IMG/VR virus record: IMGVR_UViG_2526164670_000016
Span: 1 to 33,680 of that record
Origin: a virus
Taxonomy: Duplodnaviria; Heunggongvirae; Uroviricota; Caudoviricetes
DNA length: 33,680 nt
Reading direction: 5' to 3' (one strand)
Part shown: positions 9,279 through 33,680 of the stretch, piece by piece
How the letters are laid out: each line of letters begins with the position of its first letter
How positions within the stretch are numbered: position 1 is the first letter of the stretch
The notes under the pieces: model-generated
What the model was told of the DNA's origin: nothing
Database searches by the model: none
Seen by the model: the letters and a program-made list of their open reading frames with translations, nothing else
Translations under genes and position numbers: made by a program

Positions 9279-9607
9279 AGTTAACCTCTGTACTGACAGG
9301 GCCGAAATCGTAGGTTTCCGCCGTGATATACAACCTCGAAAGGGTTTCTTCGGTGATCACTATGGTTCCTGGGACCAGACGTTCGTCGCTTTCCACCAGT
9401 AAGGACAGTTGTGTCAGCACGTCACCGCGCATTGTCGGGCTACGTTCACCGATCAGGCGGGTGGTGATACCGCTTTCCAGAATGCTGTGAATAATGTCCT
9501 GGGTGATGCTGTCGCGGTTATCGCAACGGCGCGGCTCGTTGCCCGCTGTCCAGCGTGAAATCGCCGTCAGTGATCAAAAGGTCGATGTATAACGGTTCGG
9601 TACTCAT
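9271..9607 (-). pseudogene. Small baseplate protein gene (gp46/W-like, about 111 aa) interrupted by a 1-nt frameshift
   Basis: ATG at 9607 overlaps the tape-measure stop (ATGA); frame 0 reads MSTEPLYIDLLITDGDFTLDSGQRAAPLR then stops; the +1 frame continues NEPRRCDNRDSITQDIIHSILESGITTRLIGERSP...TEVNYD and ends in a TGA overlapping the J-like ATG. One extra base near the GGGC run (about 9540) explains it. The track shows no ORF of 60 aa or more here. Confidence 0.5.
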
Positions 9608-11718: not shown

Positions 11719-11719
11719 A

Positions 11720-11917
11720 TCAGTTTCCGTTAAATGCGATTGCTATCCCTTCCGCCGTCTTACTGGCGCGGGTCTGGGCGAAATATTCATCCAGCCACAG
11801 GGCGCGGGCGATGCTTTCTTCGTCGTCGTCTTCGTGCGGGAGGTAATAGCGGCGCAGGGCAAGGTATTGCTCAAGCACATTCTTGCGAATGGCCGCCACC
11901 CGCGCCGTCAGTTTTTT
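11720..11917 (-). other. E'-like extension frame reached by programmed -1 ribosomal frameshift at slippery heptamer A_AAA_AAC (minus strand, 11911-11917)
   Basis: The -1 frame is open for 64 codons (KKLTARVAAIRKNVLEQYLALRRYYLPHEDDDEESIARALWLDEYFAQTRASKTAEGIAIAFNGN) from the heptamer, placed just before the stop of the 89-aa ORF, to a TGA one nucleotide before the tape-measure ATG. Confidence 0.55.
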
Positions 11918-12177
11918 ACTTCGATCTCAAGTTTGGGGGAGTAAATCTCGTTCACCTTCTCGACGATCTGCATTTCGCAACCCGGATAATCTTCCATCAG
12001 CTTGTTGAGCGCCTCTTTACACTCGGCATCAACAATGCGGCCCAGATAAGTCACCATCGGGGCAACCTTATTGGTCATGGTCATTTCGTTAAGCAGGTTG
12101 TTAAACGCGGTTTTATTCGGCTCAAAGCTCAGATTTACGCCCGCCACGGTCATGGCGATTTTTTTCGATTTGCTCAT
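11908..12177 (-). CDS. Tail assembly chaperone (P2 gpE-like / lambda G-like), 89 aa
   Basis: Small ORF immediately upstream of the tape measure gene; ends ...EIEVKN with the slippery heptamer inside its last codons. Confidence 0.55.
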   Translation of the reverse strand: MSKSKKIAMTVAGVNLSFEPNKTAFNNLLNEMTMTNKVAPMVTYLGRIVDAECKEALNKLMEDYPGCEMQIVEKVNEIYSPKLEIEVKN

Positions 12178-12470
12178 TGTGCTAATTCCTTACGTTGTCG
12201 AATTATGCCCACCAGGGCGTTATGTCGGGCGGCGCAGTCGGTATACATCAGCCGGTAGGCTTTCAGCGCCGCGTCAAAGTCATTTCCGGTCGGTCCGGCC
12301 AGACGTGGCAGCGTGACCGGGCAAAGTGTCAGCTGGTTTTCCTGATAATTTTCGTTCGGCTTGATCTGCACTTTCGTTGAACAACCGGACGTAATCATCA
12401 GAAGCGCAAACGTTGCTAAAAACCGGCTTAATGGTTTCCGTGCGGATAACCCGTTCCGTGTGAATTTCAT
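12174..12470 (-). CDS. o-spanin (Rz1-like outer-membrane lipoprotein), up to 98 aa
   Basis: N-terminal signal-like segment with lipobox-like LMITSGC; overlaps the 3' half of the i-spanin gene in another frame; start uncertain. Confidence 0.5.
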   Translation of the reverse strand: MKFTRNGLSARKPLSRFLATFALLMITSGCSTKVQIKPNENYQENQLTLCPVTLPRLAGPTGNDFDAALKAYRLMYTDCAARHNALVGIIRQRKELAQ

Positions 12471-12663
12471 TGGCCCTCAGCTCCGCGAGTTTTGCTTCCA
12501 GCGCTTCACCAGACTGCTGTGTCACCTCAACAACAATCTGGCGCGTTTGTTCTGCCGCTTCACTGGCAGCGAGTTTCAGCTTTGCGTCGTGCCAGTCATG
12601 CGCCTGCCAGCCCGCTGACATCGCAGCGACGAGAATCAGCAAAAGACCCAGCAAATTGCGCAT
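12280..12663 (-). CDS. i-spanin (Rz-like inner-membrane protein), 127 aa
   Basis: N-terminal transmembrane helix (LLGLLLILVAAMSAGW) followed by a charged coiled-coil-like periplasmic domain; directly downstream of the endolysin gene. Confidence 0.55.
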   Translation of the reverse strand: MRNLLGLLLILVAAMSAGWQAHDWHDAKLKLAASEAAEQTRQIVVEVTQQSGEALEAKLAELRANEIHTERVIRTETIKPVFSNVCASDDYVRLFNESADQAERKLSGKPADTLPGHAATSGRTDRK

Positions 12664-13001
12664 CAGCGAACCCCGTTATGCTCAAGACTGAAATGGTTGC
12701 CGTCCGGCTTACTGAAACGTCCACCCCACGATCCGCCGATAGATTCCCAGTATTCGCCCAGGGGGCGGTATGCGGCGCTGTCGGCCTGGTATTCGCCGTT
12801 AATAAACAGGTTAAAATCCACCGCGAGGCGCTGGGTATGCAGGCTGTTAGCAATGCCACTCCCTTTTTTTGCGTTAAGCGCGGCCTGTTCCGGCGTGCGG
12901 TACGCTTCGCCAAACGTCAGGCGATAGCCCTTTTCTTCGGCAAAATGAATCAGGCTGGCGATCATCACCGTGAAAAGTTGCTGTTTTTCACTCAGTTTCA
13001 T
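12663..13001 (-). CDS. Endolysin, L-alanyl-D-glutamate peptidase-like (peptidase M15 family), 112 aa
   Basis: Small protein with Zn-binding-like motifs (SLHTQRLAVD, DGNHFS) typical of M15 phage endolysins; sits between holin and spanins. Confidence 0.65.
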   Translation of the reverse strand: MKLSEKQQLFTVMIASLIHFAEEKGYRLTFGEAYRTPEQAALNAKKGSGIANSLHTQRLAVDFNLFINGEYQADSAAYRPLGEYWESIGGSWGGRFSKPDGNHFSLEHNGVR

Positions 13002-19642: not shown

Positions 19643-21454
19643 ATGGCTAAATATTCCGATGAATTAAAAGAAGCGGCCCGCACGCTTTATATAAAAAGCT
19701 GGACGCCGAAAGATATTGCGCAGGAACTGAATATTCCACCGCGTACAATTTACCACTGGGCTGACGTCGGGAAGTGGGCATCACTGCAGCCTGTTGAATC
19801 GGTGGAAAATGTCATCGCCCGCCGTATCGACCAGCTCTCCCGCCGCGAGAAAAAAACAGCGCTGGAACTGGAAGAACTGCGCGATCTAATTGCTCACCAT
19901 GTGAAACTCATGGCGCAGCGCAACAAGCACGCCGAAAAGCTGGCAGAAATTCAGGCCCAGAAAACGGCTTATGATGGTGAAGGGTACTGCCTCAGCAGCG
20001 CAGGCGGGGAACCAGGGGAAAGAAAGCGCCGGTATAAGAAAAACGACGTTTCCGGTATTACAGCGGAAATGCTCGACACCTGGGCGCAGGAACATCTCTT
20101 CGAGTACCAGCTGCACTGCCGCGAACATAAAGGCGAAGACTGGCGCTTCATTCTGAAAAGCCGCCAGGTGGGTATGACCTATTATTTCGCCTGGGAAGCA
20201 TTCGAAGACGCCGTCATTACCGGTGACAACCAGGTCTTTTTCTCTGCAAGCCGATCCCAGTCGGAAATCTTCCGCGAATACATCGTCCAGATCGCCCAGA
20301 ACCATTTCGGCGTGACGCTGACGGGTAAAAATATCCGCCTCAGTAACGGCGCAATACTGCGCTTTTTGTCCACGAACGCCAGCACCGCGCAGGGCTTTAA
20401 CGGCCACCTGTATGGCGATGAGGTTTTCTGGATCCCGAAATTCACGCGCCTGCATGAAGTTGCCAGCGCAATGGCAACGCATAACAAATACCGCACGACC
20501 TACTTTTCGACGCCCAGCGCGAAAACGCACCAGGCTTACCCGGTCTGGACTGGCGAAGCCTGGCGCGGGGACGACCCGAAACGCAAAGGTGTGAAGTTCC
20601 CGAACGAAAGCGAAATGTGCCAGGGCATTCTTTGCCCGGACCAGATCTGGCGCTACATCATCACGATGGAAGACGCTATCGAAGGCGGCCTCGGGGCGCT
20701 TGTCGATATTGAACGGCTGCGCAACAAATACAGCCCGACCGCGTTCGCCATGCTCTACATGTGCCAGTTTGTTGACAGTAAGGACGCGGTTTTCAAGTTC
20801 TCCGCGCTTGTCGGCTGTGAAGTGGACCGGGCCACATGGGGCGACTTTGATCTGACCGCTACGCGGCCTTTCGGCAATCGCGAAGTATGGGCAGGTTTTG
20901 ACCCGTCGCGCTCCGGCGACAACTCAACATTTGTGTTAATCGCGCCCCCTATAGAGGACGGCGAGCGCTTCCGCGTGCTGGCCGTCTGGCAATGGCAGGG
21001 TTTTAACTTCAGCTGGCAGGCCGACCAGATAAAGCAGCTTATGCGCCGCTTTAACATCACTTACATCGGGATCGATACAACCGGCATAGGTAAAGGCGTT
21101 TATGACCTTGTCAGCAAATTTGCGCCACGCGAAGCCACACCAATTCTTTACAGCGTCGAAAGCAAAAACCGCCTGGTGATGAAGATGATCGACGTTGTCG
21201 AGCGTAAGCGCATCGAATGGGCAAAAGACGCCGTAGACGAAACGAACAAGGAGCGCGTCGAAATTCCGGCCAGCTTTATGGCTATCCGGCGCACGACAAC
21301 CAACAGCGGCAATGCGCTGACGTTTGTTGCCGAACGTTCAGACGCGACCGGCCATGCAGATGTTTTCTTCGCTATCTCGCACGCCGTAATTAACGAACCT
21401 ATCGATCACGAATATGACCGCCCATCGGGCTGGTACTTTGGGAAAGCAGCATGA
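19643..21454 (+). CDS. P: Terminase ATPase (large) subunit (P2 gpP family), 603 aa
   Basis: Length and P2-like position, divergent from O and followed by the portal gene with an ATGA overlap. Confidence 0.85.
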   Translation: MAKYSDELKEAARTLYIKSWTPKDIAQELNIPPRTIYHWADVGKWASLQPVESVENVIARRIDQLSRREKKTALELEELRDLIAHHVKLMAQRNKHAEKLAEIQAQKTAYDGEGYCLSSAGGEPGERKRRYKKNDVSGITAEMLDTWAQEHLFEYQLHCREHKGEDWRFILKSRQVGMTYYFAWEAFEDAVITGDNQVFFSASRSQSEIFREYIVQIAQNHFGVTLTGKNIRLSNGAILRFLSTNASTAQGFNGHLYGDEVFWIPKFTRLHEVASAMATHNKYRTTYFSTPSAKTHQAYPVWTGEAWRGDDPKRKGVKFPNESEMCQGILCPDQIWRYIITMEDAIEGGLGALVDIERLRNKYSPTAFAMLYMCQFVDSKDAVFKFSALVGCEVDRATWGDFDLTATRPFGNREVWAGFDPSRSGDNSTFVLIAPPIEDGERFRVLAVWQWQGFNFSWQADQIKQLMRRFNITYIGIDTTGIGKGVYDLVSKFAPREATPILYSVESKNRLVMKMIDVVERKRIEWAKDAVDETNKERVEIPASFMAIRRTTTNSGNALTFVAERSDATGHADVFFAISHAVINEPIDHEYDRPSGWYFGKAA

Positions 21455-22512
21455 CAAAGAAACAGCGTAAAAATAAAAAATTCGGGTCCATGACCGGCAG
21501 CCGGGTTGAAACCTTCACGCCAGGGCGCGGAAGCGTGATCACATTTGGCGAACCAGAACCCATCCTGACGACCGGCACGGATTATCACAATATCTGGTAT
21601 GACAATGAGTATGACCACTGGCGACTTCCGATTGATCGCCTGGCGCTGGCCCAGTTGCCGAACCTTAACGGCCAGCATGGTGGTGTACTGTATGCGCGGC
21701 GCAATATGGTGGCCGGTGGCTACATCGGCGGCGGCCTGACGCCTGACCAGGTCGAACAGGCTGTCTTTGATTACCTGCTGTTTGGTGACGTTGCTATCCT
21801 GAAAATTCGTAACGTATTCGGGGAAGTGATCGACCTGCTGCCGCTGCCGTCGCTGTATCTTCGCTGCCGAAAAGACGGGTCGTTTGCTGTTTTGCAGGAA
21901 GGGCCAGCACTTATCTATGACCCGGAAGACATCGTCTTTTTTAAAATGTACGACCCGCGCCAGCAGGTGTATGGCCTGCCTGACTATATTGGCGGCATCC
22001 ATTCGGTGTTACTCAACAGTGAGGCAACCATCTTCCGACGCCGTTACTACAACAACGGGGCGCACATGGGCTTTATTCTCTATACCAGCGATCCGAATCT
22101 TACTCTGGAAATGGAAAACGAAATCAAAGAGAAGATCGCCCAGTCCAAAGGGCTGGGTAACTTCCGAAATATGTTTATCAACATCCCGAAGGGCGACCCG
22201 GAAGGGGTTAAAATCCTGCCGGTGGGCGAAGTCAGCGCAAAGGACGAATTTGCCAACATCAAAGGGATCACCGCACAGGATATCTTTACCGCTCACCGTT
22301 TCCCCGCTGGCCTGGCGGGTATCATCCCGACCAACGGCGCGGTAATGGGCAACCCTGAAACCGCCCGCACAACCTATCGCAAGGATGAAGTTATCCCCTT
22401 GCAGCGCAAGCTAATGAACGGCGTCAACAATGACCCGGAGATCCCCGCACACTTGCACCTGGTTTTTGACGTGGATATCCCGGCAATTACCACCGAAAAG
22501 GGCGAAAAATGA
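21451..22512 (+). CDS. Q: Portal protein (P2 gpQ family), 353 aa
   Basis: Size and position after the large terminase gene, with translational coupling. Confidence 0.85.
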   Translation: MTKKQRKNKKFGSMTGSRVETFTPGRGSVITFGEPEPILTTGTDYHNIWYDNEYDHWRLPIDRLALAQLPNLNGQHGGVLYARRNMVAGGYIGGGLTPDQVEQAVFDYLLFGDVAILKIRNVFGEVIDLLPLPSLYLRCRKDGSFAVLQEGPALIYDPEDIVFFKMYDPRQQVYGLPDYIGGIHSVLLNSEATIFRRRYYNNGAHMGFILYTSDPNLTLEMENEIKEKIAQSKGLGNFRNMFINIPKGDPEGVKILPVGEVSAKDEFANIKGITAQDIFTAHRFPAGLAGIIPTNGAVMGNPETARTTYRKDEVIPLQRKLMNGVNNDPEIPAHLHLVFDVDIPAITTEKGEK

Positions 22513-22568
22513 ACGCAGTTAAGTTAAAATCATCCCCACTGTTAGCAATGGCGTGCGGGATGGTGAAC

Positions 22569-22835
22569 ATGCGAGTTTTTAAAATTAAATGTCCTGAATG
22601 CGGCTCACCGGCCATCATTCGTAAATCTGACTGGAAAGACAAAAAACTGGCTGATTTATACTGCGCCTGCACGGAAGTTGAATGCGGCCACACCTTTGTT
22701 TTTAACGCCCAGTTTTCACATACCCTCAGCCCCAGCGGGCTGACCGGCAACAAGCTGGTTAAATTCCTGATTGACCGACTCAAGCCGGAAGAACGGCAAT
22801 TCGCGCTGGACCTGCTCAACGGCCAGACGGCATAA
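22569..22835 (+). CDS. ogr: Ogr/Delta-family zinc-finger late-gene transcriptional activator, 88 aa
   Basis: MRVFKIKCPECGSPAIIRK...YCACTEVECGH gives a C-x2-C-x22-C-x4-C motif as in P2 Ogr; ATG at 22569 with GGGATGG upstream (track ORF starts earlier at 22509). Confidence 0.75.
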   Translation: MRVFKIKCPECGSPAIIRKSDWKDKKLADLYCACTEVECGHTFVFNAQFSHTLSPSGLTGNKLVKFLIDRLKPEERQFALDLLNGQTA

Positions 22836-22837
22836 AC

Positions 22838-22869
22838 GAAGCCCGCATAAAGCGGGCTTCTTTTCATTT
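22838..22869 (+). terminator. Rho-independent terminator after ogr
   Basis: GAAGCCCGC-ATAAA-GCGGGCTTC hairpin followed by TTTTCATTT, starting 3 nt after the ogr stop. Confidence 0.65.
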
Positions 22870-22943
22870 AGAGTGATGTAATGTTATCCGCTATTTTGTT
22901 ACATTCATGGTGGATTTTGCCCTAATATCTGAGGAAAGAAGAT

Positions 22944-24299
22944 ATGCGAATGACCGCTCCAACCAAATCCTTTACTGATGGATTTTGTGAGAATGATGAT
23001 ATTTTTGAAAGAAAAAAACTCCACGATATCATTATGCGGGTTGCCACTAACGCCCCTGATAAAAGTTTAGTTTTAGCATTAGATGATAAATGGGGTAATG
23101 GGAAAACTTCATTTGTAAAAATGATGGAGTCAGAGATAAACAAAAACCACTCCGACGATTTCGAAGTCATCTATTTTGATGCTTTTAAAAGTGATTATCA
23201 GTCTGATCCATTTGTGGCATTAACTTCTAGCATATATTCTCTTATAAACAAAAGTGATGGAAAGTTAAAAACGCTATGTAAGGAACTGTTAGACATTGGA
23301 AAAAAACTTGGTGCCTCATTTGCTATAAATGGTGCGAAGTTTGCAATCAGTACACTTTCAGGTGGGTTACTATCTGGAACCGTTTTTGATAAGGCTACAG
23401 ACACAATAACTGACTCTATCTCTTCGCCCGTAGAGGAATATATAGAAAGCAAAATAAAAAATAGTGAAAGTGAAATCGCGATTATTGAGCGGTTTGGTGA
23501 TTTATTAACTAAAATTTGTGAACAAAGTGGTAAGAAAATATTTTTTATAATCGATGAGCTTGATCGTGCCCGCCCTGACTTTTCATTAGACTTATTAGAG
23601 AAAATAAAACATATATTTTCGGTTAAAGGTGTTATTTTCCTGTTGGTTGTTAATCGTGAACAATTTGAAAAAAGCATTGAATGTCGATATGGCAATATTA
23701 ACGCAAGGCTGTACCTTAATAAATTTGTCCATTACTGGTTTAGTCTTCCGAAGAGAAGCTATCTTTCTGAGGATTGTTTAAATAGATTTAAGCACTCCAC
23801 TATAAAACAATACCTTCTCACTATAGATAATGGTAATAATTTCTTCGTTCGCAATGGCTCCCTTGTAAATACGCTGGCGTATTTGTTAGAAGTCAATGGT
23901 TGTTCACTACGAGAGGCTGAGCGTTGTTACTCTGTGTTTGCAGTTATTGCAAATCCGAATAAAATAAACGAGTACAGTACCGATGCTTATAAAGTTGCAA
24001 TGGGACTAGTTGCATTTCTGAAAGTTCATAACCCTCAAATTCTATCTGATATCATATATAAGCGATATGAATTAAAAGAAATTCTACCAAAGCTATCAAT
24101 CAAAAGAGAACATTTAGAATATATCTCGGAGGTCTACTTACTTGATCACTTACTACAGTACCACTACAAATCAGATGAAGAATTAAAAAACCCTGAGAAC
24201 CAAAATCAATTTTCTGACTTACAAGGTTATTTTGGTCGAAGAGCCCCTGTTTTAGAAATGATGTTTGAAACAGTTGAAGGGTTTAATATTAGTTATTAA
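22944..24299 (+). CDS. KAP-family P-loop NTPase (PifA-like), 451 aa; candidate phage-exclusion protein
   Basis: Walker A WGNGKTS (aa 50-56) and Walker B IFFIIDELDRARPD (about aa 200) in the KAP style, with a hydrophobic insert between them (ASFAINGAKFAISTLSGGLLSGTVF); low-GC gene with its own RBS (GAGGAAAG) in the cargo island. Confidence 0.6.
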   Translation: MRMTAPTKSFTDGFCENDDIFERKKLHDIIMRVATNAPDKSLVLALDDKWGNGKTSFVKMMESEINKNHSDDFEVIYFDAFKSDYQSDPFVALTSSIYSLINKSDGKLKTLCKELLDIGKKLGASFAINGAKFAISTLSGGLLSGTVFDKATDTITDSISSPVEEYIESKIKNSESEIAIIERFGDLLTKICEQSGKKIFFIIDELDRARPDFSLDLLEKIKHIFSVKGVIFLLVVNREQFEKSIECRYGNINARLYLNKFVHYWFSLPKRSYLSEDCLNRFKHSTIKQYLLTIDNGNNFFVRNGSLVNTLAYLLEVNGCSLREAERCYSVFAVIANPNKINEYSTDAYKVAMGLVAFLKVHNPQILSDIIYKRYELKEILPKLSIKREHLEYISEVYLLDHLLQYHYKSDEELKNPENQNQFSDLQGYFGRRAPVLEMMFETVEGFNISY

Positions 24300-24346
24300 A
24301 CCGTAAAAACATTATTTGCAGGCTCTTTGCCGCCCGCACCCGCAGA

Positions 24347-24389
24347 ATCCTGCAGGCCGACGCAAACAGTTGCGACGTCCTGCAGGATT
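24347..24389. repeat. GC-rich inverted repeat (AATCCTGCAGG ... CCTGCAGGATT with a partly palindromic 22-nt centre)
   Basis: Perfect 11-bp arms at 24347-24357 and 24379-24389 between the convergent KAP gene and the 24394-25104 ORF. Confidence 0.5.
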
Positions 24390-24393
24390 GCAT

Positions 24394-25050
24394 TCATTCT
24401 TTTGGGGGGCGACCTTCTGCACCCGCCAGCATTTTTTGATACTCCCCGACCGGATCAAACCGCAGACGCGTGGCATCTATGCCGTGGTTTTCCCGCAGAC
24501 GTTCCCATAATTTATTCACCATCCGTGACTCGTCGGGTAATTGACGCGTTATCAACTGGCCGCCAGCACTGGCCCGATAAACTTTTCCGCCAATCTCCAG
24601 ACGGCTCCCCATTAACAGCGAAACGGCCTGAATCTCTGAAATCTCAACCGAACACAACACCGCATCTGCCAGCAGACTGGCAACCGCAGGGGCAAGCGCT
24701 GCCTGCCTAGCTTTTTCAGCCTCCGATCTGGCCTCGGTTTTTTCAACGGCAGAACGCCAGGCGACATCTAATTCGCTTCCTGGCTCATAAGGTGATCCGC
24801 TTTGCCGCCTTTTGAATGGTGTTTCACGTAGTCGCCGCATCAATTTGCGCCGCGTTGGCTGGTCCATATCTTCAAAATCGACGATTTCATCGTCTGAATC
24901 TTCTGTCGTTAACTCTCCGTCAGCTGGCACAGCCATTTCTGACATTGAAAAATCGGTGATTTTTTCGTCTTCCGTAGAGTTATTGACAGAACTCGAACTC
25001 AAACACTCTGTACATTTTTGTGCAGTATAAAAAGTCTTCATGTTGATCAT
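24394..25050 (-). CDS. Hypothetical protein, acidic N-terminal region; start uncertain (ATG at 25050 or 25041; track ORF starts at a GTG at 25104)
   Basis: Single open frame across a GC-rich segment that contrasts with the AT-rich flanking cargo genes; no strong RBS; no family recognised. Confidence 0.3.
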   Translation of the reverse strand: MINMKTFYTAQKCTECLSSSSVNNSTEDEKITDFSMSEMAVPADGELTTEDSDDEIVDFEDMDQPTRRKLMRRLRETPFKRRQSGSPYEPGSELDVAWRSAVEKTEARSEAEKARQAALAPAVASLLADAVLCSVEISEIQAVSLLMGSRLEIGGKVYRASAGGQLITRQLPDESRMVNKLWERLRENHGIDATRLRFDPVGEYQKMLAGAEGRPPKE

Positions 25051-25118
25051 CAGTGCATAGACTTTTATGATTAGTTCAAAATGGCATTGTGCAGTATGCT
25101 CCACAACGGGTGAGACTT

Positions 25119-25682
25119 ATGAACATTCAAACCGAGACAATTTTTAGCATTGGGCATGGTGCTCGCAGGCTAGAAGAATTTATAGCTTTGTTGAAAAAAT
25201 ATCATATCAGATATGTTATAGACGTTCGTTCAAAACCCAGATCTAGGTTTCACCCACATTTTAATCGTGAAGCTTTGACTCTTCATTTGAAAGAAGCAGG
25301 CATTCGATACGTATTCATGGGAGAACAATTAGGTGGTATTCCTAAAGATGATCAATGTTACGATGAAGACGGACGGGTTGATTACGAAAAAATAAAAAAC
25401 AAAGCTTTTTTCCATGAGGGAATTGAGAGAATAAAAACGGCTCATTCAAAAAATTTAAAAATTGCATGTATGTGTAGCGAGCTATCCCCTTGCGATTGCC
25501 ATAGAAGTAAATTAATTGGTGATTACTTGCAATCACTCGGGATAGAAATGCAGCATATAGATAAGAAAGGAGATATTAGTTCACAAAATGACGTAATGAA
25601 GGAAGTGCTCGGCTCAAACGGTGAATTGGACCTATTTTCGGACAACACCAAAAAATTAAAATCAAGAAAATCGTATCGTTGA
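25119..25682 (+). CDS. DUF488-like protein, 187 aa
   Basis: N-terminal IFSIGHGARRLEEFIALLKK...VIDVRSKPRSRFHPHFNRE and later CMCSE..PCDCHR match what I recall as the DUF488 signature; ATG at 25119 with GGTGAG upstream (track ORF starts at a GTG at 25089); low GC. Confidence 0.55.
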   Translation: MNIQTETIFSIGHGARRLEEFIALLKKYHIRYVIDVRSKPRSRFHPHFNREALTLHLKEAGIRYVFMGEQLGGIPKDDQCYDEDGRVDYEKIKNKAFFHEGIERIKTAHSKNLKIACMCSELSPCDCHRSKLIGDYLQSLGIEMQHIDKKGDISSQNDVMKEVLGSNGELDLFSDNTKKLKSRKSYR

Positions 25683-25697
25683 ATAAAGGGTATTGAG

Positions 25698-26309
25698 ATG
25701 AATACTGATGTAATAATTCTTTCCAGAACAAAAATGTCTGGAGATAAAATTTGCGTAGGTGGATTAGATCTTAATAGTGGGAAGATGTTAAGATTATTGG
25801 ATAATAGAGCAAGTGCTTTGACTTCAGCTTATCCATATAGTATTGGCGAAACATACTCAATAGAGTTTGCTGAAAGGTATCAAGTAGCAGCCCCACATGT
25901 TGAAGATGTAGCTGTTTATGACTACAGCTTAGCGAAAAGTTTTAATAAAGTAGATCTAGATACTATCGTCCATAAACACTCTGGTACATATAACAATCTT
26001 AGTGAACTCTTCTCTGGAAAACTTCACTGGCAAAACTCCAAGGGATATGCTTTGGAGTCAGACCCTCCGGAATTTAGCGTTCAAATAGCAAAAATTAATA
26101 AAATCCTAGTTAGAAATGGAACTGACTTTCAAGAGTTCGGCTCACTCAATCCGCGCAAAGTTAAATATGTTGGCGAACTTGATATAAATAGACTCCCTAG
26201 TAGAATAAATCCTGGCACACCTATTAGATTTTCTTTAGCTCGACCTTGGGATAAGGATAATAATGGTATTAAAGTGTGTTATTTACAACTATCTGGAGTT
26301 TACATTTAA
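25698..26309 (+). CDS. Hypothetical protein, 203 aa, co-operonic partner of the DUF488-like gene
   Basis: ATG 15 bp after the DUF488 stop with AAAGGG..GAG upstream; AT-rich; no family recognised. Confidence 0.5.
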   Translation: MNTDVIILSRTKMSGDKICVGGLDLNSGKMLRLLDNRASALTSAYPYSIGETYSIEFAERYQVAAPHVEDVAVYDYSLAKSFNKVDLDTIVHKHSGTYNNLSELFSGKLHWQNSKGYALESDPPEFSVQIAKINKILVRNGTDFQEFGSLNPRKVKYVGELDINRLPSRINPGTPIRFSLARPWDKDNNGIKVCYLQLSGVYI

Positions 26310-26428: not shown

Positions 26429-28927
26429 TTACTCTATCGCCTTTCTCCAGCGACTGAGCAACTCATCAACTCTATGCCTTGCCAGCGTTTTACGCCAGTT
26501 CATATCCGCACCGGTCACAATCAACTCCCCTGTAATTTGGTTGGCACGGTAAGTAGTATCAAGCGCAGTCACTTCTCTCCCTTGTACCAGCTTTAGCACT
26601 TGCACAGGTGTGATTTGGATCTTTCTTAACTTCGCCCAATCCAGTACCTGAGCAACTAGGGCTGTAACGTTCTTATCTACTACGCTTTCTTCCTGGCGGA
26701 GCGCATACGCGGCTTTTAAATAGCTTTCCGCTCTAGCTCGGTTATATTCGGTGCACTCACCCACAGTGATACTGTACGCAAGTGACTCAAACTCATCTGC
26801 TGCTGAAACACGCTGCGTTTGTTTGTGGATTTTCAGGCCTTCAGCAATCTCTTTTTTCTGTTCCCACCTTAATTTGCCGATTTCAAATTGCTCTGGAGAT
26901 TCATCCCTAGTCGGCAAAGTCAGATCTGGCCGATAAACAACCTGGCAATCTGTTTGTTTTTTGTACTCAGTACAGTTATTGACACGAGTCCTAGAGGGCG
27001 CAGACGCGCCCTTAAGGTCAACAGCAAGGTCAACGGCCTTGCCTGAATCGTTAATAATCTCCGGTTTCTTACGCACAATCCGATAAGAATGTAGGCGGGT
27101 TTCAACTGGCGGCATGAAGATGTGAGGCATCACCAGTCCTTTAATTAAGGTCTGGTATTCACCGTGATCGTTTGGCTGGTCTTTTTGTTGATACCAGATG
27201 CGCAGTGGCAGATCACAACGGGCAACCAACGCCCCACCCTGCAATTGGGTGTATTGCTGCCAGTCGCCAGCATCCGCTGCACGGTGCAGCTCGGCAAACA
27301 ACGGGTTAATCTGGTCTGCCTTTTCCTGATTGCGGAATCGACGTAGCTCGCGCCAGACTGAAACAGGCGCACCACCAAGGAACTGGAATTGACGAATACC
27401 CCAGCATGATGCCCAGGCCGTCGCATGTTTTGAGGTTTCTTTTAATGGTCTGCCGTTCTCGTCATCTGTTTCACCGTCGAGCGCGTAACCATCAATATTC
27501 TTGCTGATATACTTCACCACATAACCGGTGGCGCTTCCGATTTCATGATCGATAGGCTTCATTTCGAAACGTGGACGAATGCCATGCTTACCCTGCAATT
27601 CGTCCTCATCCTCGCGGGTGGCGTAGTCCTTCATCACTTCCAACAATTCAGCTGAATGTTCTGGTAAGGAAAACAGAAGACCATGCCAGTGTGGCGTTCC
27701 GTCGTGGTGAGATTCAGCCACGCGAAGCCCAAACACCTGAATATCGCGGCGGGCCAACTCAGCGCGGATCTGTTGCCAGACTCGATTAAGATAACGTTGC
27801 GTGGTTCTTGGACTGGCCCCGTTCCATTTGCCATTACGATGACCGAAGACGGTATAGGCATGATATTTGGAAGGTGCTGTCATGGTGAAAAACTGCCCTG
27901 CATAGCCACTTTCGGTAGCGACTTTCTCGAAGCCACCGATGCGAGTCATAAGCTCAACGCGGCGCAAAGCTGGGTTAGATATGCTCTTATCTATTTGCTC
28001 AATGAGTGAAATGCGTTCTTTGGTTTCCTGATCTTCCAGCTCAAGCCTGGCCATAATCGCCCGGCTGCGTTTCCGCCTAGTGTCCCACTCTTCAACATGA
28101 TGCTTACTGCAATATGGCGCAGCGCCTCGCTTCACATCACCAAAAGCGATGTGCAGATGTTCACGCCAGCGCGTGCCGTACTTTTTAAGATTTCGGTGCC
28201 AGTAGCGATCATCCAGCATCTTGCTGATACCGGTCGTCGCCTCATCAATAAACAATTTACCCCGGCAATACTTTTCCCAGTTCGGTGGCGTTAGAAAGAA
28301 AAGACGCGCAAGTTGTGCCGCCTCGGTGTAAAGGTATTCGGCATACCGGCGATCACTTTGCGTCTCTACCGTTTCGTGTACCTCGCTCAGCACCGACCGC
28401 ATATAGATCGCAATATCCTGCGCTAATAGTTCAACATCTTCCGGCGTGTAGTCCGGCAGCCTGTTGAATCTCTCAACTAAACCGTTAAGGGTATCAAATA
28501 CATGGTAAAGCGGGTTTAACTTTTTGAATGCTGTTTCAGCTTGTGATTTTGCGTCTTCGGTCATCGCAATTGCGTATTGAGCATTCACCATATTGATGGG
28601 CGGCAGCTCTCTGCGGATGATGTCTCTTACTGCCTGACGGGCAATATGTCGGCCCTTCATCGTGTGAATACTGTCAATGCGAGAAGCCAAGCGCAGGCGT
28701 ATAAAGCGAGGAAGTCTCGAAAGGGTAAGTTTCACCCACGACAAAAACTCTTGTTCTTGACCCAATTCGAATAGATCAACAACAGGAGTCTTATCAACAT
28801 AAATAGCTGCATTAGGCTTTTGCCACTCGTAATCGTAATTGATATCAGCAGCAGAATTAGACATACCCCTGCCGCCAACTAACTGGCGGCGATTGTTACT
28901 CGGCCGAACAAACGCGGAGTCTGTCAC
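26429..28927 (-). CDS. A: Replication initiation endonuclease (P2 gpA-like rolling-circle initiator), 832 aa from the GTG at 28927
   Basis: HUH motif (DGTPHWHGLLF) and catalytic tyrosine motif (GYVVKYISKNIDGYALDG) as I recall from P2 gpA; GTGA overlap with the Dam stop, alternative ATG at 28864. Confidence 0.85.
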   Translation of the reverse strand: MTDSAFVRPSNNRRQLVGGRGMSNSAADINYDYEWQKPNAAIYVDKTPVVDLFELGQEQEFLSWVKLTLSRLPRFIRLRLASRIDSIHTMKGRHIARQAVRDIIRRELPPINMVNAQYAIAMTEDAKSQAETAFKKLNPLYHVFDTLNGLVERFNRLPDYTPEDVELLAQDIAIYMRSVLSEVHETVETQSDRRYAEYLYTEAAQLARLFFLTPPNWEKYCRGKLFIDEATTGISKMLDDRYWHRNLKKYGTRWREHLHIAFGDVKRGAAPYCSKHHVEEWDTRRKRSRAIMARLELEDQETKERISLIEQIDKSISNPALRRVELMTRIGGFEKVATESGYAGQFFTMTAPSKYHAYTVFGHRNGKWNGASPRTTQRYLNRVWQQIRAELARRDIQVFGLRVAESHHDGTPHWHGLLFSLPEHSAELLEVMKDYATREDEDELQGKHGIRPRFEMKPIDHEIGSATGYVVKYISKNIDGYALDGETDDENGRPLKETSKHATAWASCWGIRQFQFLGGAPVSVWRELRRFRNQEKADQINPLFAELHRAADAGDWQQYTQLQGGALVARCDLPLRIWYQQKDQPNDHGEYQTLIKGLVMPHIFMPPVETRLHSYRIVRKKPEIINDSGKAVDLAVDLKGASAPSRTRVNNCTEYKKQTDCQVVYRPDLTLPTRDESPEQFEIGKLRWEQKKEIAEGLKIHKQTQRVSAADEFESLAYSITVGECTEYNRARAESYLKAAYALRQEESVVDKNVTALVAQVLDWAKLRKIQITPVQVLKLVQGREVTALDTTYRANQITGELIVTGADMNWRKTLARHRVDELLSRWRKAIE

Positions 28928-29910
28928 CGCTCAGACTCCACGCCACATGTCGCAGCCGTTGCCAGCATTTCGTTATAGGTCGCGTTACCCATTACAGGGC
29001 CACAATCAGGGCAACCACCACCACCGGCACGACCACAGCCGCTACACAATTTGAGGACGCCGATCACTTCACTGGCGGCCCCTCGGGTAATGGCGTTCGC
29101 GCTAACAGAACGGTTAACGCTGATTTCCTGGAAGTTGAAACAGCGATAAATCTCGCGGGTGACTGGGGTGTCGCTATTGGACAGGATCACCGGCGAACCA
29201 GTAAGGCGGTTAATATCCAGCAGGACGGCAGCTAACTGGCGATGTTCTTTAATGCCAAACGGGGCTGTGTGATATTGGGTGAAATTAGCTGTTTCGCTTG
29301 TTGGCAGGTATGGCGGATCGCAGTAGATAACCGCGTCACTACCAATCATGATTTTTAACGTGCTCTGGAAATCGCAGCACACGAAAATGGCTTTCGTGTC
29401 GTTAGCTTTTTCAGAGAATAAACGGATCTGTTCTTCCGGGAAGTAAGGCGGGGTTTTGTGACGCCCAAAGGGAACGTTATATCCACCCTGTTGGTTGTAG
29501 CGTACTACGCCGTTATATCCGTGACGGTTCAGGTAAAGAAATTGTGCTGCACGAAGAATCTTGCCCGCGTCCGGCCCATCTTCAAACACACTGCGCAATG
29601 ACAGTAGGTCACGTGCGCGGGCGTTGAAATCATCGCGGATCCATTTATAGCCGTCTTTATCGCCGTACACTTTAAACAGTGGGCGAGCAGCGTCGATCAC
29701 CGCATCAGGCCAGCGGGTTATCTGGCGATACAGGTTAATTAAATCTGGGTTGATATCACCCAGGATATAACGGCGATATTCAGTATTGAGGAAAACAGAA
29801 GCACCGCCGACAAACGGTTCCACCAGGCAATCGGCTTTCGGCAGAATCGGCAGCAAATCAGGCATAACGCGGCCTTTACCACCGGGCCATTTAACGAGAG
29901 ATCGAATCAT
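28924..29910 (-). CDS. DNA adenine methyltransferase, Dam-like, with a Cys-rich C-terminal extension, 328 aa
   Basis: WPGGKGRV...EPFVGGASVF (SAM-binding) and IYCDPPY (catalytic DPPY) closely resemble E. coli Dam from memory; extra tail CSGCGRAGGGGCPDCGP; GGAG RBS before the ATG at 29910. Confidence 0.85.
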   Translation of the reverse strand: MIRSLVKWPGGKGRVMPDLLPILPKADCLVEPFVGGASVFLNTEYRRYILGDINPDLINLYRQITRWPDAVIDAARPLFKVYGDKDGYKWIRDDFNARARDLLSLRSVFEDGPDAGKILRAAQFLYLNRHGYNGVVRYNQQGGYNVPFGRHKTPPYFPEEQIRLFSEKANDTKAIFVCCDFQSTLKIMIGSDAVIYCDPPYLPTSETANFTQYHTAPFGIKEHRQLAAVLLDINRLTGSPVILSNSDTPVTREIYRCFNFQEISVNRSVSANAITRGAASEVIGVLKLCSGCGRAGGGGCPDCGPVMGNATYNEMLATAATCGVESER

Positions 29911-29980
29911 TTTTACTTTCTCCAGGGTGCAAGAAGCCCGACGCGTTAGCGCCTGTTTCTTTTTTGTGGGTAGTTAGTTG

Positions 29981-30376
29981 TTAATTTACTGCGTTATCTG
30001 GCGCGGGTGGTTTGTCGCGTATCGCCTGAATTTCGGCGCGTGGTGCGGCGTAGTCCTCAAATTCCCACGGCATTGATGCTGCAAATTCGGAAAGGCGCTT
30101 AATGCCCATCAAAAGGCACGTTTGCTCCTTTTCGGTTAGATTTTCGTAAGTACAACCCAGCTGTTTGGCGGTCAGCTTCGGCATTCCGACTATGTATCTG
30201 GACGCATCGTTTGCCAGGATGAAAATCACCTTTTTGCAGGCATCATCCAGGCGGTTAAAACGGGTTGCAGTGTCATTCACGCGTGAGGCGTTCAAACTGG
30301 CTTGCAGCCGCGCCCGTTGCTCTAAGAACTGGCGGCGACCTGGCTGTTGTTCTGTCTTATCCATCAACATAACCAC
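29981..30376 (-). CDS. Hypothetical early-operon protein, up to 131 aa (sits where P2 has gene B, but not recognised as B)
   Basis: ORF in the early operon between the 97-aa ORF and the Dam gene; several candidate starts; no family recognised. Confidence 0.4.
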   Translation of the reverse strand: MVMLMDKTEQQPGRRQFLEQRARLQASLNASRVNDTATRFNRLDDACKKVIFILANDASRYIVGMPKLTAKQLGCTYENLTEKEQTCLLMGIKRLSEFAASMPWEFEDYAAPRAEIQAIRDKPPAPDNAVN

Positions 30377-30385
30377 CTCCCCGAA

Positions 30386-30679
30386 CTACGCAAAGATGCC
30401 CATTAAGCGGGAAAACCAGCGGCGCTTATTACGCGGGCGCGACATGAACGGTACACGGTAGTTTTTAACAAATTGAACATCTAACGCTTTCGGCTGGAAG
30501 AACCTCCCGTCCGGGGTTTCAATCCAGCCACGTTGATGCTGACGGTGGGTGATCTGCTGGCCGTGGGTGAGCAGGCTGGCGAGTGAAGGGCACTGTGTTA
30601 AGTCCATGATGATCTCCGTCATATTGAAAAGATGCCGGGATATAACCCCACGCCCGGCACGTGTTTCCTGTGATAACAT
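30386..30679 (-). CDS. Hypothetical early-operon protein, 72-97 aa depending on start
   Basis: ORF with an internal ATG (MDLTQ...) preceded by GGAG; basic C-terminus; no family recognised. Confidence 0.3.
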   Translation of the reverse strand: MLSQETRAGRGVISRHLFNMTEIIMDLTQCPSLASLLTHGQQITHRQHQRGWIETPDGRFFQPKALDVQFVKNYRVPFMSRPRNKRRWFSRLMGIFA

Positions 30680-32436: not shown

Positions 32437-33221
32437 ATGACAATTAAGAAACTCGATGATGGTCGTTATGAAGTGGATATCAGACCTGCAGGGCGCAACG
32501 GAAAGCGCATCCGCAGGAAATTTGACAAGAAAAGTGAGGCTGTAGCTTTTGAGAAACACACTCAATACAACCATCACGATAAAGAATGGCTAGCTAAACC
32601 GACAGATAAGCGGCATCTGTCTGAATTAACAAAAGTCTGGTGGGATCTGAAAGGCAAGCATGAAGAACACGGAAAATCCAATTTGGGTAAGATTGAAATC
32701 TTTACCCGGATCACTGATGACCCTTGCGCGTTCCAGATAACCAAAGCGCTTATTAGCCAGTACAGCATGACTCGCAGAGGGCAAGGCATAAAACCGGCCA
32801 GTATTAACCGCGACCTTACCTGCCTGAGTGGTATGTTTACTGCGCTAATTGATGCGGAACTGTTTTTTGGCGAACACCCTTTCAGAGGGATGAAAAAGCT
32901 CAAGGAGCAGAAACCAGAAACAGGCTATCTGACGCAGGAAGAAATAACATTGTTACTTGCCAATCTTGACGGGGACAACAAGAAAATCGCGATCCTCTGT
33001 TTAAGTACCGGCGCTCGATGGGGTGAAGCCGCGAAACTGAAAGCTGAGAACGTAATACAGAATCGGGTGACGTTCGTTAAAACAAAGACGAACAAACCGC
33101 GCACAGTCCCTATCTCTGAGGAAGTTGCTGTAATGATTGCGGGTAAAGGTTATCTGTTCCCTGATGCCTCATATCCGAAGTTCAGGCGAACAATGAAAGA
33201 TGTAAAACCAGATCTACCGAG
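32437..33221 (+). pseudogene. int: Tyrosine integrase (P2 Int-like), 3'-truncated by IS insertion; about 261 of an expected ~337 aa retained
   Basis: N-terminal 260 aa strongly resemble P2 Int from memory up to ...KDVKPDLPS; after about 33221 the frame reads unrelated sequence (LYIDLCNCLILICS...) into the IS; the C-terminal catalytic region is absent. Confidence 0.8.
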
Positions 33222-33680
33222 CCTGTACATAGATTTGTGTAATTGCCTGATTTTGATATGTTCAATCCAGCATCAAATGAAGGTTAATTTATGGACGAAA
33301 AACAGTTACAGGCTCTGGCTAACGAACTGGCCAAAAACCTCAAAACCCCTGAAGACCTCAGTCAGTTTGATCGGCTGCTGAAAAAACTCAGCGTTGAAGC
33401 CGCTCTCAATGCTGAGATGACACACCATCTTGGGTATGAGAAAAATCAGTCCAGACCAGGAGCTAACTCCCGCAACGGTTATTCCACAAAGACCGTTATC
33501 ACAGGCGACGGTCCACTGGAACTGCGTACTCCGCGCGATCGTGACGGTACCTTCGAACCGCAACTGGTAAAGAAAAATCAGACCCGTATTACCGGGATGG
33601 ATAACCAGATCCTGTCGTTGTATGCCAAAGGGATGACCACCCGTGAGATAGCTACTGCGTTCAAAGAACTGTATGACGCA
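33221..33680 (+). mobile_element. IS256-family insertion sequence (IS1414/IS285-like), left end and 5' part; continues beyond the window
   Basis: Transposase ORF begins at 33291, about 70 bp inside the inferred left end; the boundary is placed where the integrase homology stops (plus or minus 10 bp). Confidence 0.7.
33291..33680 (+). CDS. IS256-family transposase, N-terminal 130 aa (partial, runs off the window)
   Basis: MDEKQLQALANELAKNLKTPEDLSQFDRLLKKL...NSRNGYSTKTVITGDGPLELRTPRDRDGTFEPQLVKKNQTRITGMDNQILSLYAKGMTTREI is the typical IS256/Mutator-like transposase N-terminus; no stop before the window end. Confidence 0.8.
   Translation, partial: MDEKQLQALANELAKNLKTPEDLSQFDRLLKKLSVEAALNAEMTHHLGYEKNQSRPGANSRNGYSTKTVITGDGPLELRTPRDRDGTFEPQLVKKNQTRITGMDNQILSLYAKGMTTREIATAFKELYDA

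What the first reader, a model, noticed from the sequence alone, without database searches (positions are those of the whole stretch)
24394..25104. GC-rich ORF of unknown function embedded in AT-rich cargo
A 219-236-aa frame runs through the only GC-rich part of the island on the minus strand. It has an acidic N-terminal stretch (EDSDDEIVDFEDMDQ) and a basic middle, no recognised domain and no good RBS. It may be a real gene of different origin from its neighbours (for example a tin/old-locus relic), or a non-coding remnant with a chance open frame.
Basis: seen in the sequence. Interest (0 to 1): 0.35.

Follow-up and report, generated by a model that had tools for sequence, protein, structure and literature searches.

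The report
Leftover tail of replaced replication gene
The GC-rich reading frame is the leftover last quarter of an older phage replication gene (P2-type gene A), cut almost exactly at that gene's internal replication-origin nick site when a different replication gene plus defence-like cargo was spliced in; the gene piece itself is ordinary, but the cut position hints at how these phages swap cargo.

Summary
The ORF is real as described (24394-25104, minus strand, 236 codons, GC 0.52 between cargo of GC 0.34-0.36). It is not an unknown gene. Codons 37-236 plus 76 downstream bases (24318-24997) are 95% identical in DNA to the 3' end of the replication-endonuclease gene A of Salmonella phages SI7/SW3/SW5. 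The rest of the window (a P2-like prophage, found in E. coli) is also about 95% identical to those phages. Codons 1-36 are the antisense of the DUF488 gene's promoter region.

An intact but different gene A allele ("A_new", 26429-28927) sits 2 kb upstream, followed by DuOB and DUF488 cargo. The fragment lacks the catalytic domain, has no promoter or ribosome-binding site, is truncated further in Citrobacter relatives and is frameshifted in some copies. I read it as a recombination scar.

The notable point is that SI7 identity starts 0-3 nt from the position homologous to the nick site annotated in phage P2. Two further independent gene-A tails (Klebsiella prophages and a related short-read contig) and two orphan origin cores start at the same spot, each with an unrelated left flank. 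Left and right modules are exchanged across these half-origins. This suggests origin-nick-associated illegitimate recombination. It is rare: none was found among P2-type origins.

The parts
24394..24997 (-). 3' fossil of an SI7-type gene A (replication endonuclease): codons 37-236 of the ORF plus the stop codon. It lacks the catalytic Phage_GPA domain.
   Evidence: 95.1% nt identity to Salmonella phage SI7/SW5/SW3 'replication endonuclease' over window 24318-24997. tblastn 94.5% aa identity. phrog_6857 1.1e-42 at profile positions 601-775 of 855. No Pfam hit.
24979..24997 (-). Retained 3' half of the old origin. +1 G = 24994, core TGTCAATAAC = 24979-24988. The bases TTC (24995-24997) stand where intact SI7 has TTG.
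   Evidence: Alignment with the P2 ori, whose record annotates 'nick site at ori' at 29892 (CTCG|GAGTCCTGTCAATAAC), and with the SI7 and E. coli 2011C gene A. Upstream of 24997 there is no similarity to any gene A.
24998..25104 (-). Chance 5' extension of the ORF (codons 1-36). It is the antisense of the DUF488 upstream/promoter region and is not A-derived.
   Evidence: This stretch is conserved upstream of DUF488 in unrelated contexts (Klebsiella L012, L016). A promoter-like site lies on the + strand at 25043-25071. No SD before any start.
24318..24393 (-). Downstream tail of the old early operon, with a terminator-like hairpin (24317-24338).
   Evidence: SI7 identity continues 76 nt past the stop codon. 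Terminator-like site found.
25119..26309 (+). Incoming cargo: DUF488 (25119-25682; GTG alternative start at 25089) and DuOB (25698-26309).
   Evidence: Pfam DUF488 3.9e-23 and DuOB 7.7e-08. PADLOC PDC-M45B 1.4e-54 for DUF488. GC 0.356.
26429..28927 (-). Intact gene A of a different allele ('A_new', 832 aa) with its own ori (+1 = 26990, core 26975-26984). Its ori is in direct orientation 1996 nt upstream of the fossil half-ori.
   Evidence: Pfam Phage_GPA 1.8e-101 and phrog_91 3.3e-239. Only 23% aa identity to the fossil over the C-terminal region. Sequence. No SI7 similarity between 24998 and 28935.
22864..24317 (+). Resident cargo on the other side of the fossil: KAP-family P-loop NTPase (22944-24299).
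   Evidence: Pfam KAP_NTPase 2.6e-40. PADLOC PDC-S20 6.7e-70. It replaces the methylase + hypothetical gene of SI7.

Best explanation
The ORF is a gene fragment. It is the last 200 codons, stop codon and terminator of an SI7-type gene A, which encodes the rolling-circle replication initiator of P2-like phages and contains the origin inside its own coding sequence.

What happened (shown). In an SI7-like phage, the segment [small ORF + cytosine methylase + first ~2 kb of gene A] was replaced by [a complete heterologous gene A with its own origin + DuOB + DUF488]. The upstream crossover lies in or next to the shared Dam methylase gene. The downstream joint lies 0-3 nt 5' of the position homologous to the P2 origin nick. 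So the old origin lost its 5' half, and the old gene lost its catalytic domain.

Status of the fragment (inferred). It is most likely not a functional gene. It is carried along because it sits between two cargo modules and holds the terminator that faces the KAP NTPase gene.

Mechanism (inferred, about 0.55). The joint was made by a break or strand transfer at the origin nick produced by the gene A protein. In other words, it is nick-associated illegitimate recombination of the kind known for rolling-circle plasmids and filamentous phages. Once formed, such a half-origin stays a preferred boundary at which the module on its left (replication gene + its cargo) and the module on its right (fossil + older cargo + late genes) are re-assorted between phages.
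For: Identity of the fragment.
- 95% nt identity to the SI7 gene A 3' end, ending at 24997.
- The rest of the window (1679-24997) is 95.4% identical to SI7/SW5/SW3. SI7 identity resumes at 28936-30592.
- PHROG hits fall only on the C-terminal profile positions.

Evidence that it is not functional.
- No Phage_GPA domain.
- No minus-strand promoter and no SD sequence.
- Codons 1-36 are the antisense of the conserved DUF488 upstream region.
- In Citrobacter relatives with the same joint, the fragment is additionally cut at its 3' end by a different cargo (nSTAND3) and fused to unrelated codons.
- Frameshifted copies exist (P0012, P0014).

Nick position.
- The P2 record annotates the nick at 29892. 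The alignment puts the start of SI7 identity at -3..+1 relative to it.

Independent repeats of the pattern.
- Klebsiella prophages L012-L015 carry an A_new-type 3' tail that starts at ...TAG|GACTCGTGTCAATAAC, next to an HNH gene's upstream region.
- L145 carries an Edwardsiella-type tail (phrog_91 5.7e-06; 81% nt to L011) joined inside the HNH coding sequence. Both parents are known there, and the break lies between -4 and -3.
- L164/L152 and L173 carry orphan origin cores at the same register with two further left flanks.
- T at -3 is kept in all five joints.

Module exchange across the half-origin.
- Window versus Citrobacter: 98-100% identity to the left of the joint and about 50 nt past it, then 86-92% with a different allele and different cargo.
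- L012 versus L164: 97.2% identity through A_K-174aa-HNH up to the origin core, then unrelated sequence until the portal gene.
- Intact A genes also switch allele at the origin: 99.2% then 72.3%, and 81.6% then 60.8%. There is also a chimeric A in K. pneumoniae L148.
Against: - The break is 0-4 nt 5' of the annotated P2 nick, not demonstrably at the cleaved bond. I could not read the primary mapping paper, and I do not know which strand is nicked in these alleles.
- The pattern is rare. Among P2-type origins in IMG/VR there were at least 120 intact copies and no joint variants. No second core was found in about 120 P2-type loci.
- An E. coli gene A pseudogene (EC195) starts 22 nt 3' of the nick, so not every truncation is at the same register.
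- Several joints involve the same families of phages (A_K, A_new), so the events may be less independent than they look.
- The ORF is kept open in most of a 36-member E. coli/Salmonella cluster. A lineage-specific substitution test was uninformative (4 synonymous / 4 non-synonymous on the window branch). A protein function is therefore not excluded.
Confidence: 0.85

Rival explanations
1. The fragment is a functioning stand-alone gene. It would encode the C-terminal domain of gene A protein, for example as a dominant-negative or exclusion factor against incoming SI7-type phages, or as an accessory replication factor.
For: The frame is open in the window and in most members of a 36-member cluster at 90% or more identity, found on more than 100 E. 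coli contigs. In another lineage (L016 type, several protein clusters including an NCBI Enterobacter genome), the A gene is split just after the origin into 644 aa + 164 aa. So a separately encoded C-terminal domain does recur.
Against: There is no promoter-like site on its strand, no SD, and three ambiguous starts. The first 36 codons are the antisense of a neighbour's promoter. The C-terminal ~40 residues are replaced in Citrobacter copies, and frameshifted copies exist. omega of about 0.4 between alleles is no lower than for the same region in intact genes. There are no PADLOC, Pfam or NCBIfam hits.
Confidence: 0.1
2. It is a fossil, but the position of the joint has nothing to do with nicking. 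The origin core is simply the only DNA conserved between divergent A alleles, so ordinary homologous or microhomology-mediated recombination lands there.
For: The core and its 3' flank are identical over 13-48 nt between alleles. The allele switches in intact A genes, and the window/Citrobacter swap about 50 nt past the joint, fit crossover within this conserved stretch. In L145 the HNH parent and the origin share AGGAG near the joint.
Against: This cannot create the first joint. In all five joints the left partner is not a gene A and has no origin core (DUF488 promoter region, HNH upstream region, inside the HNH CDS, two AT-rich flanks). The conserved stretch lies 3' of the break, whereas the break itself sits at a fixed register (-4..0) 5' of it.
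Confidence: 0.25
3. It is a chance open frame in non-coding DNA, or a relic of the P2 tin/old exclusion genes.
For: No Pfam, NCBIfam or PADLOC domain. It sits at the genome position where P2 carries tin and old.
Against: 95% nt and 94.5% aa identity, in frame, to the 3' end of an annotated intact gene A. There is no similarity to Old or Tin. Strong PHROG replication-protein hits.
Confidence: 0.01

Closest known systems
Gene A / ori of phage P2 (Phage_GPA, PF05840; rolling-circle initiator whose origin lies inside its own gene)
   Same: The fragment derives from a member of this family (SI7 allele). It keeps the conserved origin core TGTCAATAAC and the C-terminal region. The window also has an intact member.
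   Different: The fragment has no catalytic domain and only the 3' half of the origin. It cannot be an initiator.
Illegitimate recombination at the nick site of rolling-circle replicons (M13 and pC194-type plasmids: Michel and Ehrlich, 1980s, recalled from memory; qacC/lnuA DSO-SSO cassette model in staphylococcal plasmids, PMC5037232)
   Same: One partner of the joint is fixed at the origin nick while the other is arbitrary. Cargo next to the origin is conserved and moves between backbones whose replication genes differ (for the qacC model).
   Different: Here the replicon is a 33-kb tailed temperate phage and the origin lies inside the initiator gene, so each event leaves a gene tail as a scar. 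The break appears 0-4 nt 5' of the annotated nick. No experiment links A protein to the joints.
Defence hotspot between gpA and gpQ of P2-like prophages (Rousset et al. 2022, PMC9122126; NAR 2026, PMC13586616)
   Same: Same locus, and AT-rich defence-like cargo (KAP NTPase = PDC-S20, DUF488 = PDC-M45B). The 2026 paper reports that pseudogenes are frequent in these loci and that GpA is the core gene most often found as a pseudogene.
   Different: Those papers propose cos ends plus homologous recombination, or unspecified illegitimate recombination. Neither mentions the origin nick or fragments that start at it (searches for 'nick' and 'rolling'; 'nick').

Membership tests
Phage_GPA replication endonuclease (functional member) | Catalytic core (Pfam PF05840 region with the HUH-type metal site and the active-site tyrosines) | tested here: not met
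   No Pfam hit for the ORF even at E<=0.1, whereas the intact A_new gives 1.8e-101 over residues 164-481. The ORF aligns only to PHROG profile positions 601-775 of 855.
Phage_GPA replication endonuclease (derived from a member) | Collinear sequence homology to the C-terminal part of a bona fide gene A, in the same frame and with the same stop | tested here: met
   95.1% nt over 680 nt and 94.5% aa over 199 aa to the SI7/SW3/SW5 'replication endonuclease', ending at the same stop codon.
P2-type origin of replication | Complete nick region: 5' half (..C-T-N-G) plus 3' half (GA-N4-TGTCAATAAC) | tested here: not met
   The 3' half is present and identical to SI7 (24979-24994). The 5' half is replaced by unrelated sequence, with only TT retained.
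P2-type origin of replication | Cleavage by the cognate A protein | not testable with these tools
   Needs purified protein and oligonucleotide substrates.
Pseudogene / recombination scar | Truncation relative to intact homologues, no own expression signals, further decay in relatives | tested here: met
   5' truncation of about 677 codons. No promoter or SD. 3' truncation in Citrobacter copies and frameshifted copies.
Pseudogene / recombination scar | Relaxed selection on the lineage after truncation | tested here: inconclusive
   Window branch 4 S / 4 N and SI7 branch 2 S / 3 N with an E. coli outgroup, which is too few changes. omega 0.39-0.45 between remnant alleles, versus 0.04-0.14 for neighbouring genes, but that compares different alleles.
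P2 Old / Tin exclusion genes | Sequence similarity to Old (AAA/TOPRIM) or Tin | tested here: not met
   No Pfam or PADLOC hit for the ORF. Its homology is to gene A instead.
Known anti-phage defence proteins (PADLOC) | Match to a defence-system model | tested here: not met
   0 families for the ORF, although its neighbours match PDC-S20 and PDC-M45B.

The most novel reading that the evidence does not exclude
Half-origins left in the gpA-gpQ hotspot are not inert scars. They would be sites that gene A protein (an HUH-type nickase) can still cut or join, so P2-like phages stack and swap 'replication gene + defence cargo' modules by origin-to-origin strand transfer. The gene A tails would then serve as a readable stratigraphy of past replacements. 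This would supply the missing mechanism for rapid cargo turnover in these hotspots.
Probability: 0.3. Interest if true: 0.75.

Novelty: new member of a known kind. Interest (0 to 1): 0.45.

Why it matters
On its own the ORF is a mis-annotatable gene fragment. NCBI calls it 'replication protein', and it should not be counted as a gene or as a defence candidate.

Its 5' boundary is the informative part. Two recent surveys of P2-like defence hotspots state that the exchange mechanism is unresolved (PMC9122126, PMC13586616). Here the hotspot's inner boundary repeatedly coincides with the origin nick region. Modules on either side of such half-origins are re-assorted between E. coli, Citrobacter and Klebsiella prophages.

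If confirmed, this gives a testable, enzyme-based explanation for how replication modules and cargo are stacked. It also gives a simple marker, gene A tails that begin at TGTCAATAAC minus 9 nt, for reconstructing the order of acquisitions.

Tried and rejected
- Pfam, NCBIfam and PADLOC on the ORF: no hits.
- Direct BLASTP against the window's intact gene A: only 23% identity, E 0.03. The internal duplicate is not a recent copy.
- Exact left-flank 32-mer and 'non-intact' origin patterns in IMG/VR: no hits.
- Genome-contig scan with A_new: one relative only (Edwardsiella piscicida), without DUF488 or a fossil. No immediate parent of the left flank was found; L016-type phages (A_new-type + DuOB + DUF488, no SI7 tail) are the nearest.
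- A_new C-terminus against phage records: no match.
- Search for a P2-type cos site in the window: none. I dropped the idea that the left flank is a cos end.
- Salmonella 171-178-aa 'replication proteins' turned out to be genes cut by contig ends, not fossils.
- The primary paper on the P2 nick (PMC332061) and the P2 review were not available. Literature searches did not settle which strand is nicked.
- Lineage-specific dN/dS: too few substitutions.
- PHROG check of the L164 181-aa and L012 122-aa tails: no hit. L164's status as a gene A tail rests only on the origin motif, and L012's rests on DNA alignment.

Full report
**Observation.** The ORF exists exactly as described: 24394-25104 on the minus strand, GTG start, 236 codons. 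Its A-derived part has GC 0.518 and the 76 bases after its stop have GC 0.632. The cargo on either side has GC 0.339 and 0.356, and the whole window has 0.514. The 'GC-rich island' is therefore normal phage-backbone DNA lying between two AT-rich insertions. Pfam, NCBIfam and PADLOC give nothing for it. PHROGs do: phrog_6857 at 1.1e-42 and phrog_91 ('nicking at origin of replication') at 1.7e-08, in both cases only against the C-terminal profile positions of roughly 600-780 out of about 855.

**Context.** The window is a P2-like prophage.
- Positions 1-1362 encode a host U32 peptidase, and an integrase lies at the right end.
- Window 1679-24997 is 95.4% identical to Salmonella phages SI7, SW5 and SW3 (Peduoviridae, Irrigatiovirus).
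- From left to right the region reads: portal Q (21451-22512, +), an Ogr/Delta zinc-finger gene (22509-22835, +), a KAP-family NTPase (22944-24299, +), the ORF (-), DUF488 (25119-25682, +), DuOB (25698-26309, +), and a complete gene A of 832 aa (26429-28927, -).
- This is the gpA-gpQ hotspot of P2-like phages described by Rousset et al. (PMC9122126).
- The identical ORF protein is on record from E. coli (for example EFW73399.1 and WP_024185294.1) and is named 'replication protein' by NCBI.

**What the ORF is.** Window 24318-24997 is 95.1% identical in DNA to the last 604 bases of the SI7 'replication endonuclease' gene plus 76 bases downstream of it. The stop codon is the same. At protein level the identity is 94.5% over 199 residues.
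- Codons 37-236 are therefore the inherited frame of gene A.
- Codons 1-36 (24998-25104) have no gene A similarity. They are the antisense of the region upstream of DUF488, which is conserved in front of DUF488 in unrelated Klebsiella contexts and carries a promoter-like site on the plus strand.
- The intact gene A upstream is a different allele ("A_new"). It shares only 23% identity with the fragment in the C-terminal region and has no megablast or tblastn relative among phage records.
- SI7 identity resumes at 28936-30592, in the Dam methylase gene and beyond.
- Relative to SI7, the segment [228-bp ORF + cytosine methylase + first 2 kb of gene A] has been replaced by [A_new + DuOB + DUF488].
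- Separately, SI7's methylase and small ORF on the other side have been replaced by the KAP NTPase.

**Is it a working gene?** Probably not.
- It lacks the whole catalytic domain.
- There is no promoter-like site on its strand and no Shine-Dalgarno sequence before any of the three possible starts.
- Citrobacter prophages that carry the same joint have the fragment cut again at the position equivalent to 24515 by a different cargo gene (nSTAND3/Mrr-like), with unrelated C-terminal codons.
- Frameshifted copies are on record (P0012, P0014).
- A lineage-polarised count of substitutions gave 4 synonymous and 4 non-synonymous on the window branch, which is too few to decide.
- Against the pseudogene reading, the frame is open in most of a 36-member cluster. 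In another lineage the A gene is split right after the origin into 644 + 164 residues.
- I give a protein function about 10%.
- The retained 3' tail includes a terminator-like hairpin (24317-24338) that faces the end of the KAP gene. That may help explain why the DNA persists.

**The joint.** P2 replicates by a rolling circle that starts when the A protein nicks an origin located inside gene A and binds the 5' end (PMC8537503). The P2 record annotates the nick at 29892, that is CTCG|GAGTCCTGTCAATAAC. The aligned sequences are:

| Sequence | Nick region |
|---|---|
| SI7 gene A | GCTTG\|GAGTTCTGTCAATAACTCTACGG |
| Window fragment | GAGTTC\|GAGTTCTGTCAATAACTCTACGG |
| Intact A_new | CTCTAG\|GACTCGTGTCAATAACTGTAC |

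- In window coordinates +1 is 24994 and the core is 24979-24988.
- SI7 identity starts at 24997 (TT, then one mismatch at -1). There is nothing 5' of that.
- The old gene was therefore cut within 0-3 nt of the nick-homologous position. The old origin kept only its 3' half.
- A_new's own origin (+1 = 26990) lies 1996 nt upstream in the same orientation.

**Is this a coincidence?** Four more joints argue against it.
- **Klebsiella prophages L012-L015.** The order is portal, DUF488, DuOB, then a 122-codon tail of an A_new-type gene A that begins …CCCTAGTAG|GACTCGTGTCAATAACTGT, directly next to the upstream region of an HNH gene. This is followed by a 174-aa gene and an intact third allele, A_K.
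- **L145.** It has the same A_K-174aa-HNH module (95.5% to L012), but the HNH gene is cut inside its coding sequence: …CTGGATACC|TAG|GAGTTCTGTCAATAACTGTACTG. This leads into an Edwardsiella-type gene A tail (81% nt to L011; phrog_91 5.7e-06) and a helicase-like cargo. Both parents are known here, and the origin-side break falls between -4 and -3.
- **L164 (= L152).** It is 97.2% identical to L012 through A_K, the 174-aa gene, HNH and the left flank, up to the origin core. From there it is unrelated until the portal gene. The joint reads …GGAACTCCATAG|GAGTTCTGTCAATAACTGTACGG and is followed by a 181-codon frame and a 710-aa KAP-like NTPase. That frame has no PHROG hit, so its gene A origin rests only on the motif.
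- **L173.** It has an orphan core after an AT-rich flank (…GCTTAA|GAGTTC…). This is homologous to the L164 tail from -3 for 115 nt, and is then followed by other cargo.

In all five joints T at -3 is retained, the left partner is unrelated to gene A, and the whole 3' half of the origin is kept.

**Modules re-assort across these half-origins.**
- Window and Citrobacter prophages are 98-100% identical from the Dam gene through A_new, DuOB, DUF488 and the joint (dS 0.04-0.09, omega 0.04-0.14). From about 50 nt past the joint they drop to 86-92%, with a 21-nt indel. The window carries the SI7 allele and Citrobacter carries the allele of E. coli 2011C-4251, followed by different cargo.
- L012 versus L164 shows the same thing for a different left module.
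- Intact A genes also change allele at the origin: A_K of L012 versus L173 is 99.2% before and 72.3% after; A_new versus the Edwardsiella A is 81.6% and 60.8%.
- K. pneumoniae L148 has an A gene that is A_K-type up to the origin and Edwardsiella-type after it.

**Limits.**
- The phenomenon is not general. For the abundant P2-type origin, IMG/VR holds at least 120 intact copies and no copy with a non-canonical -1 or -4 base. None of about 120 P2-type loci had a second core.
- In E. coli complete genomes, about 3% of P2-type hits are a gene A pseudogene (for example EC195) whose homology begins 22 nt 3' of the nick. That is near the nick but not at the same register.
- Several joints share the A_K or A_new families, so independence is partial.
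- I could not obtain the primary mapping paper. The exact cleaved bond, and which strand is cut, rest on the GenBank feature and on my memory of the literature.
- The break seems to sit 3-4 nt 5' of the annotated nick in the one case where both parents are known.

**Mechanism (inferred).** The simplest reading involves a cell holding two P2-like genomes. One crossover occurred by homology in the early region (Dam). The other was an illegitimate join between an arbitrary point downstream of the incoming phage's cargo and the nicked origin of the resident phage.
- If the coding strand is the nicked one, the A protein bound to the 5' end (GAG…) would transfer it to a foreign 3'-OH. This is aberrant termination, as described for rolling-circle plasmids and filamentous phages (recalled from memory) and as modelled for qacC plasmids (PMC5037232).
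- If the other strand is nicked, the 3'-OH at the nick would prime on a foreign template.
- Retention of T-(A/T)-(G) at -3..-1 could mean either that the break is at -3/-4, or that A protein chose pseudo-sites resembling the 5' half.
- The rival is homologous recombination in the conserved core. It explains later allele swaps but not the first joints, whose left partners have no core.

**Known versus new.** That the ORF is a gene A fragment is ordinary. NCBI's name already implies it, and a 2026 survey notes that pseudogenes are frequent in these loci and that GpA is often pseudogenised (PMC13586616). The origin-bounded register of the fragments, and the exchange of modules across them, are not mentioned in that paper or in Rousset et al. 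Those papers propose cos ends plus homologous recombination, or unspecified illegitimate recombination. I rate the feature as a new member of a known kind: a recombination scar at a rolling-circle origin.

**Verdict.** My confidence is about 0.95 that this is a gene A 3' fossil, about 0.75 that it has no protein function, and about 0.55 that origin nicking created the joint. Interest is 0.45.

Noticed in passing
window 32437-33381 and 33219-33318: The integrase ORF ends in an odd C-terminal tail. About 100 bases here are 100% identical to unannotated DNA in phage P-EibE and phi330, which suggests an insertion element or another joint that disrupts the integrase. The prophage may be locked in place.
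   Followed up: no
window 22509-22835: An Ogr/Delta zinc-finger gene (Pfam 2.6e-17) overlaps the stop of the portal gene Q, on the cos-proximal side of the hotspot. SI7 and the E. coli and Citrobacter relatives have the same arrangement. No P2-type cos 19-mer is present in the window.
   Followed up: partly
window 22944-24299 and 25119-26309: Both cargo modules look like candidate defence genes. The KAP NTPase matches PADLOC PDC-S20 (6.7e-70) and weakly QatA/PifA. DUF488 matches PDC-M45B (1.4e-54). Its partner DuOB has no PADLOC model. The DUF488-DuOB pair recurs in Klebsiella, Citrobacter and E. coli P2-like hotspots.
   Followed up: partly
L005 (Citrobacter freundii CP056850) 8742-12847: Only DuOB, DUF488, the gene A fossil and the nSTAND3 gene remain, between clpA and the U32 peptidase gene. 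No other prophage gene was called in the stretch examined. This looks like a decayed prophage reduced to its cargo.
   Followed up: no
L016 7342-9789 (also P0151-P0153, P0156): In one A_new-type lineage, gene A stops about 40 nt after the origin core (644 aa) and a separate 164-aa frame encodes the C-terminal domain. This is seen in several assemblies, including an NCBI Enterobacter hormaechei genome. It could be a real split, a slippery C-run, or programmed frameshifting.
   Followed up: partly
L020 (E. coli EC195) 5999-6406: A P2-type gene A pseudogene 'missing N-terminus' is fused in frame to the start of an upstream early gene. Homology to P2 A begins 22 nt 3' of the nick. By the spread sampling, about 3% of E. 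coli genomes with P2-type hits show this 3'-only match.
   Followed up: partly
L148 (K. pneumoniae ABZRWD010000066) 1-620: A chimeric gene A is A_K-type up to the origin (98.6% to L012) and Edwardsiella-type from the origin on (82% to L011). It is followed by AAA + S8 peptidase cargo.
   Followed up: partly
L149-L173 (metagenome contigs), e.g. L159, L161, L163, L166, L155: The 24-nt motif G|GAGTTCTGTCAATAACTGTACG occurs in many environmental contigs with no detectable gene A nearby. Several copies follow a hairpin-like TGCCGCATAGGCAGC. L155 has the motif in tandem, about 33 nt apart. These may be origins of other gpA-family replicons that lie outside the rep gene.
   Followed up: no
L012 11495-14044: The A_K allele has a one-base variant of the core (TGGCAATAAC; protein ..TRGNNC..). 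Its nick region is otherwise nearly identical to A_new's, so the two initiators may recognise each other's origins.
   Followed up: no
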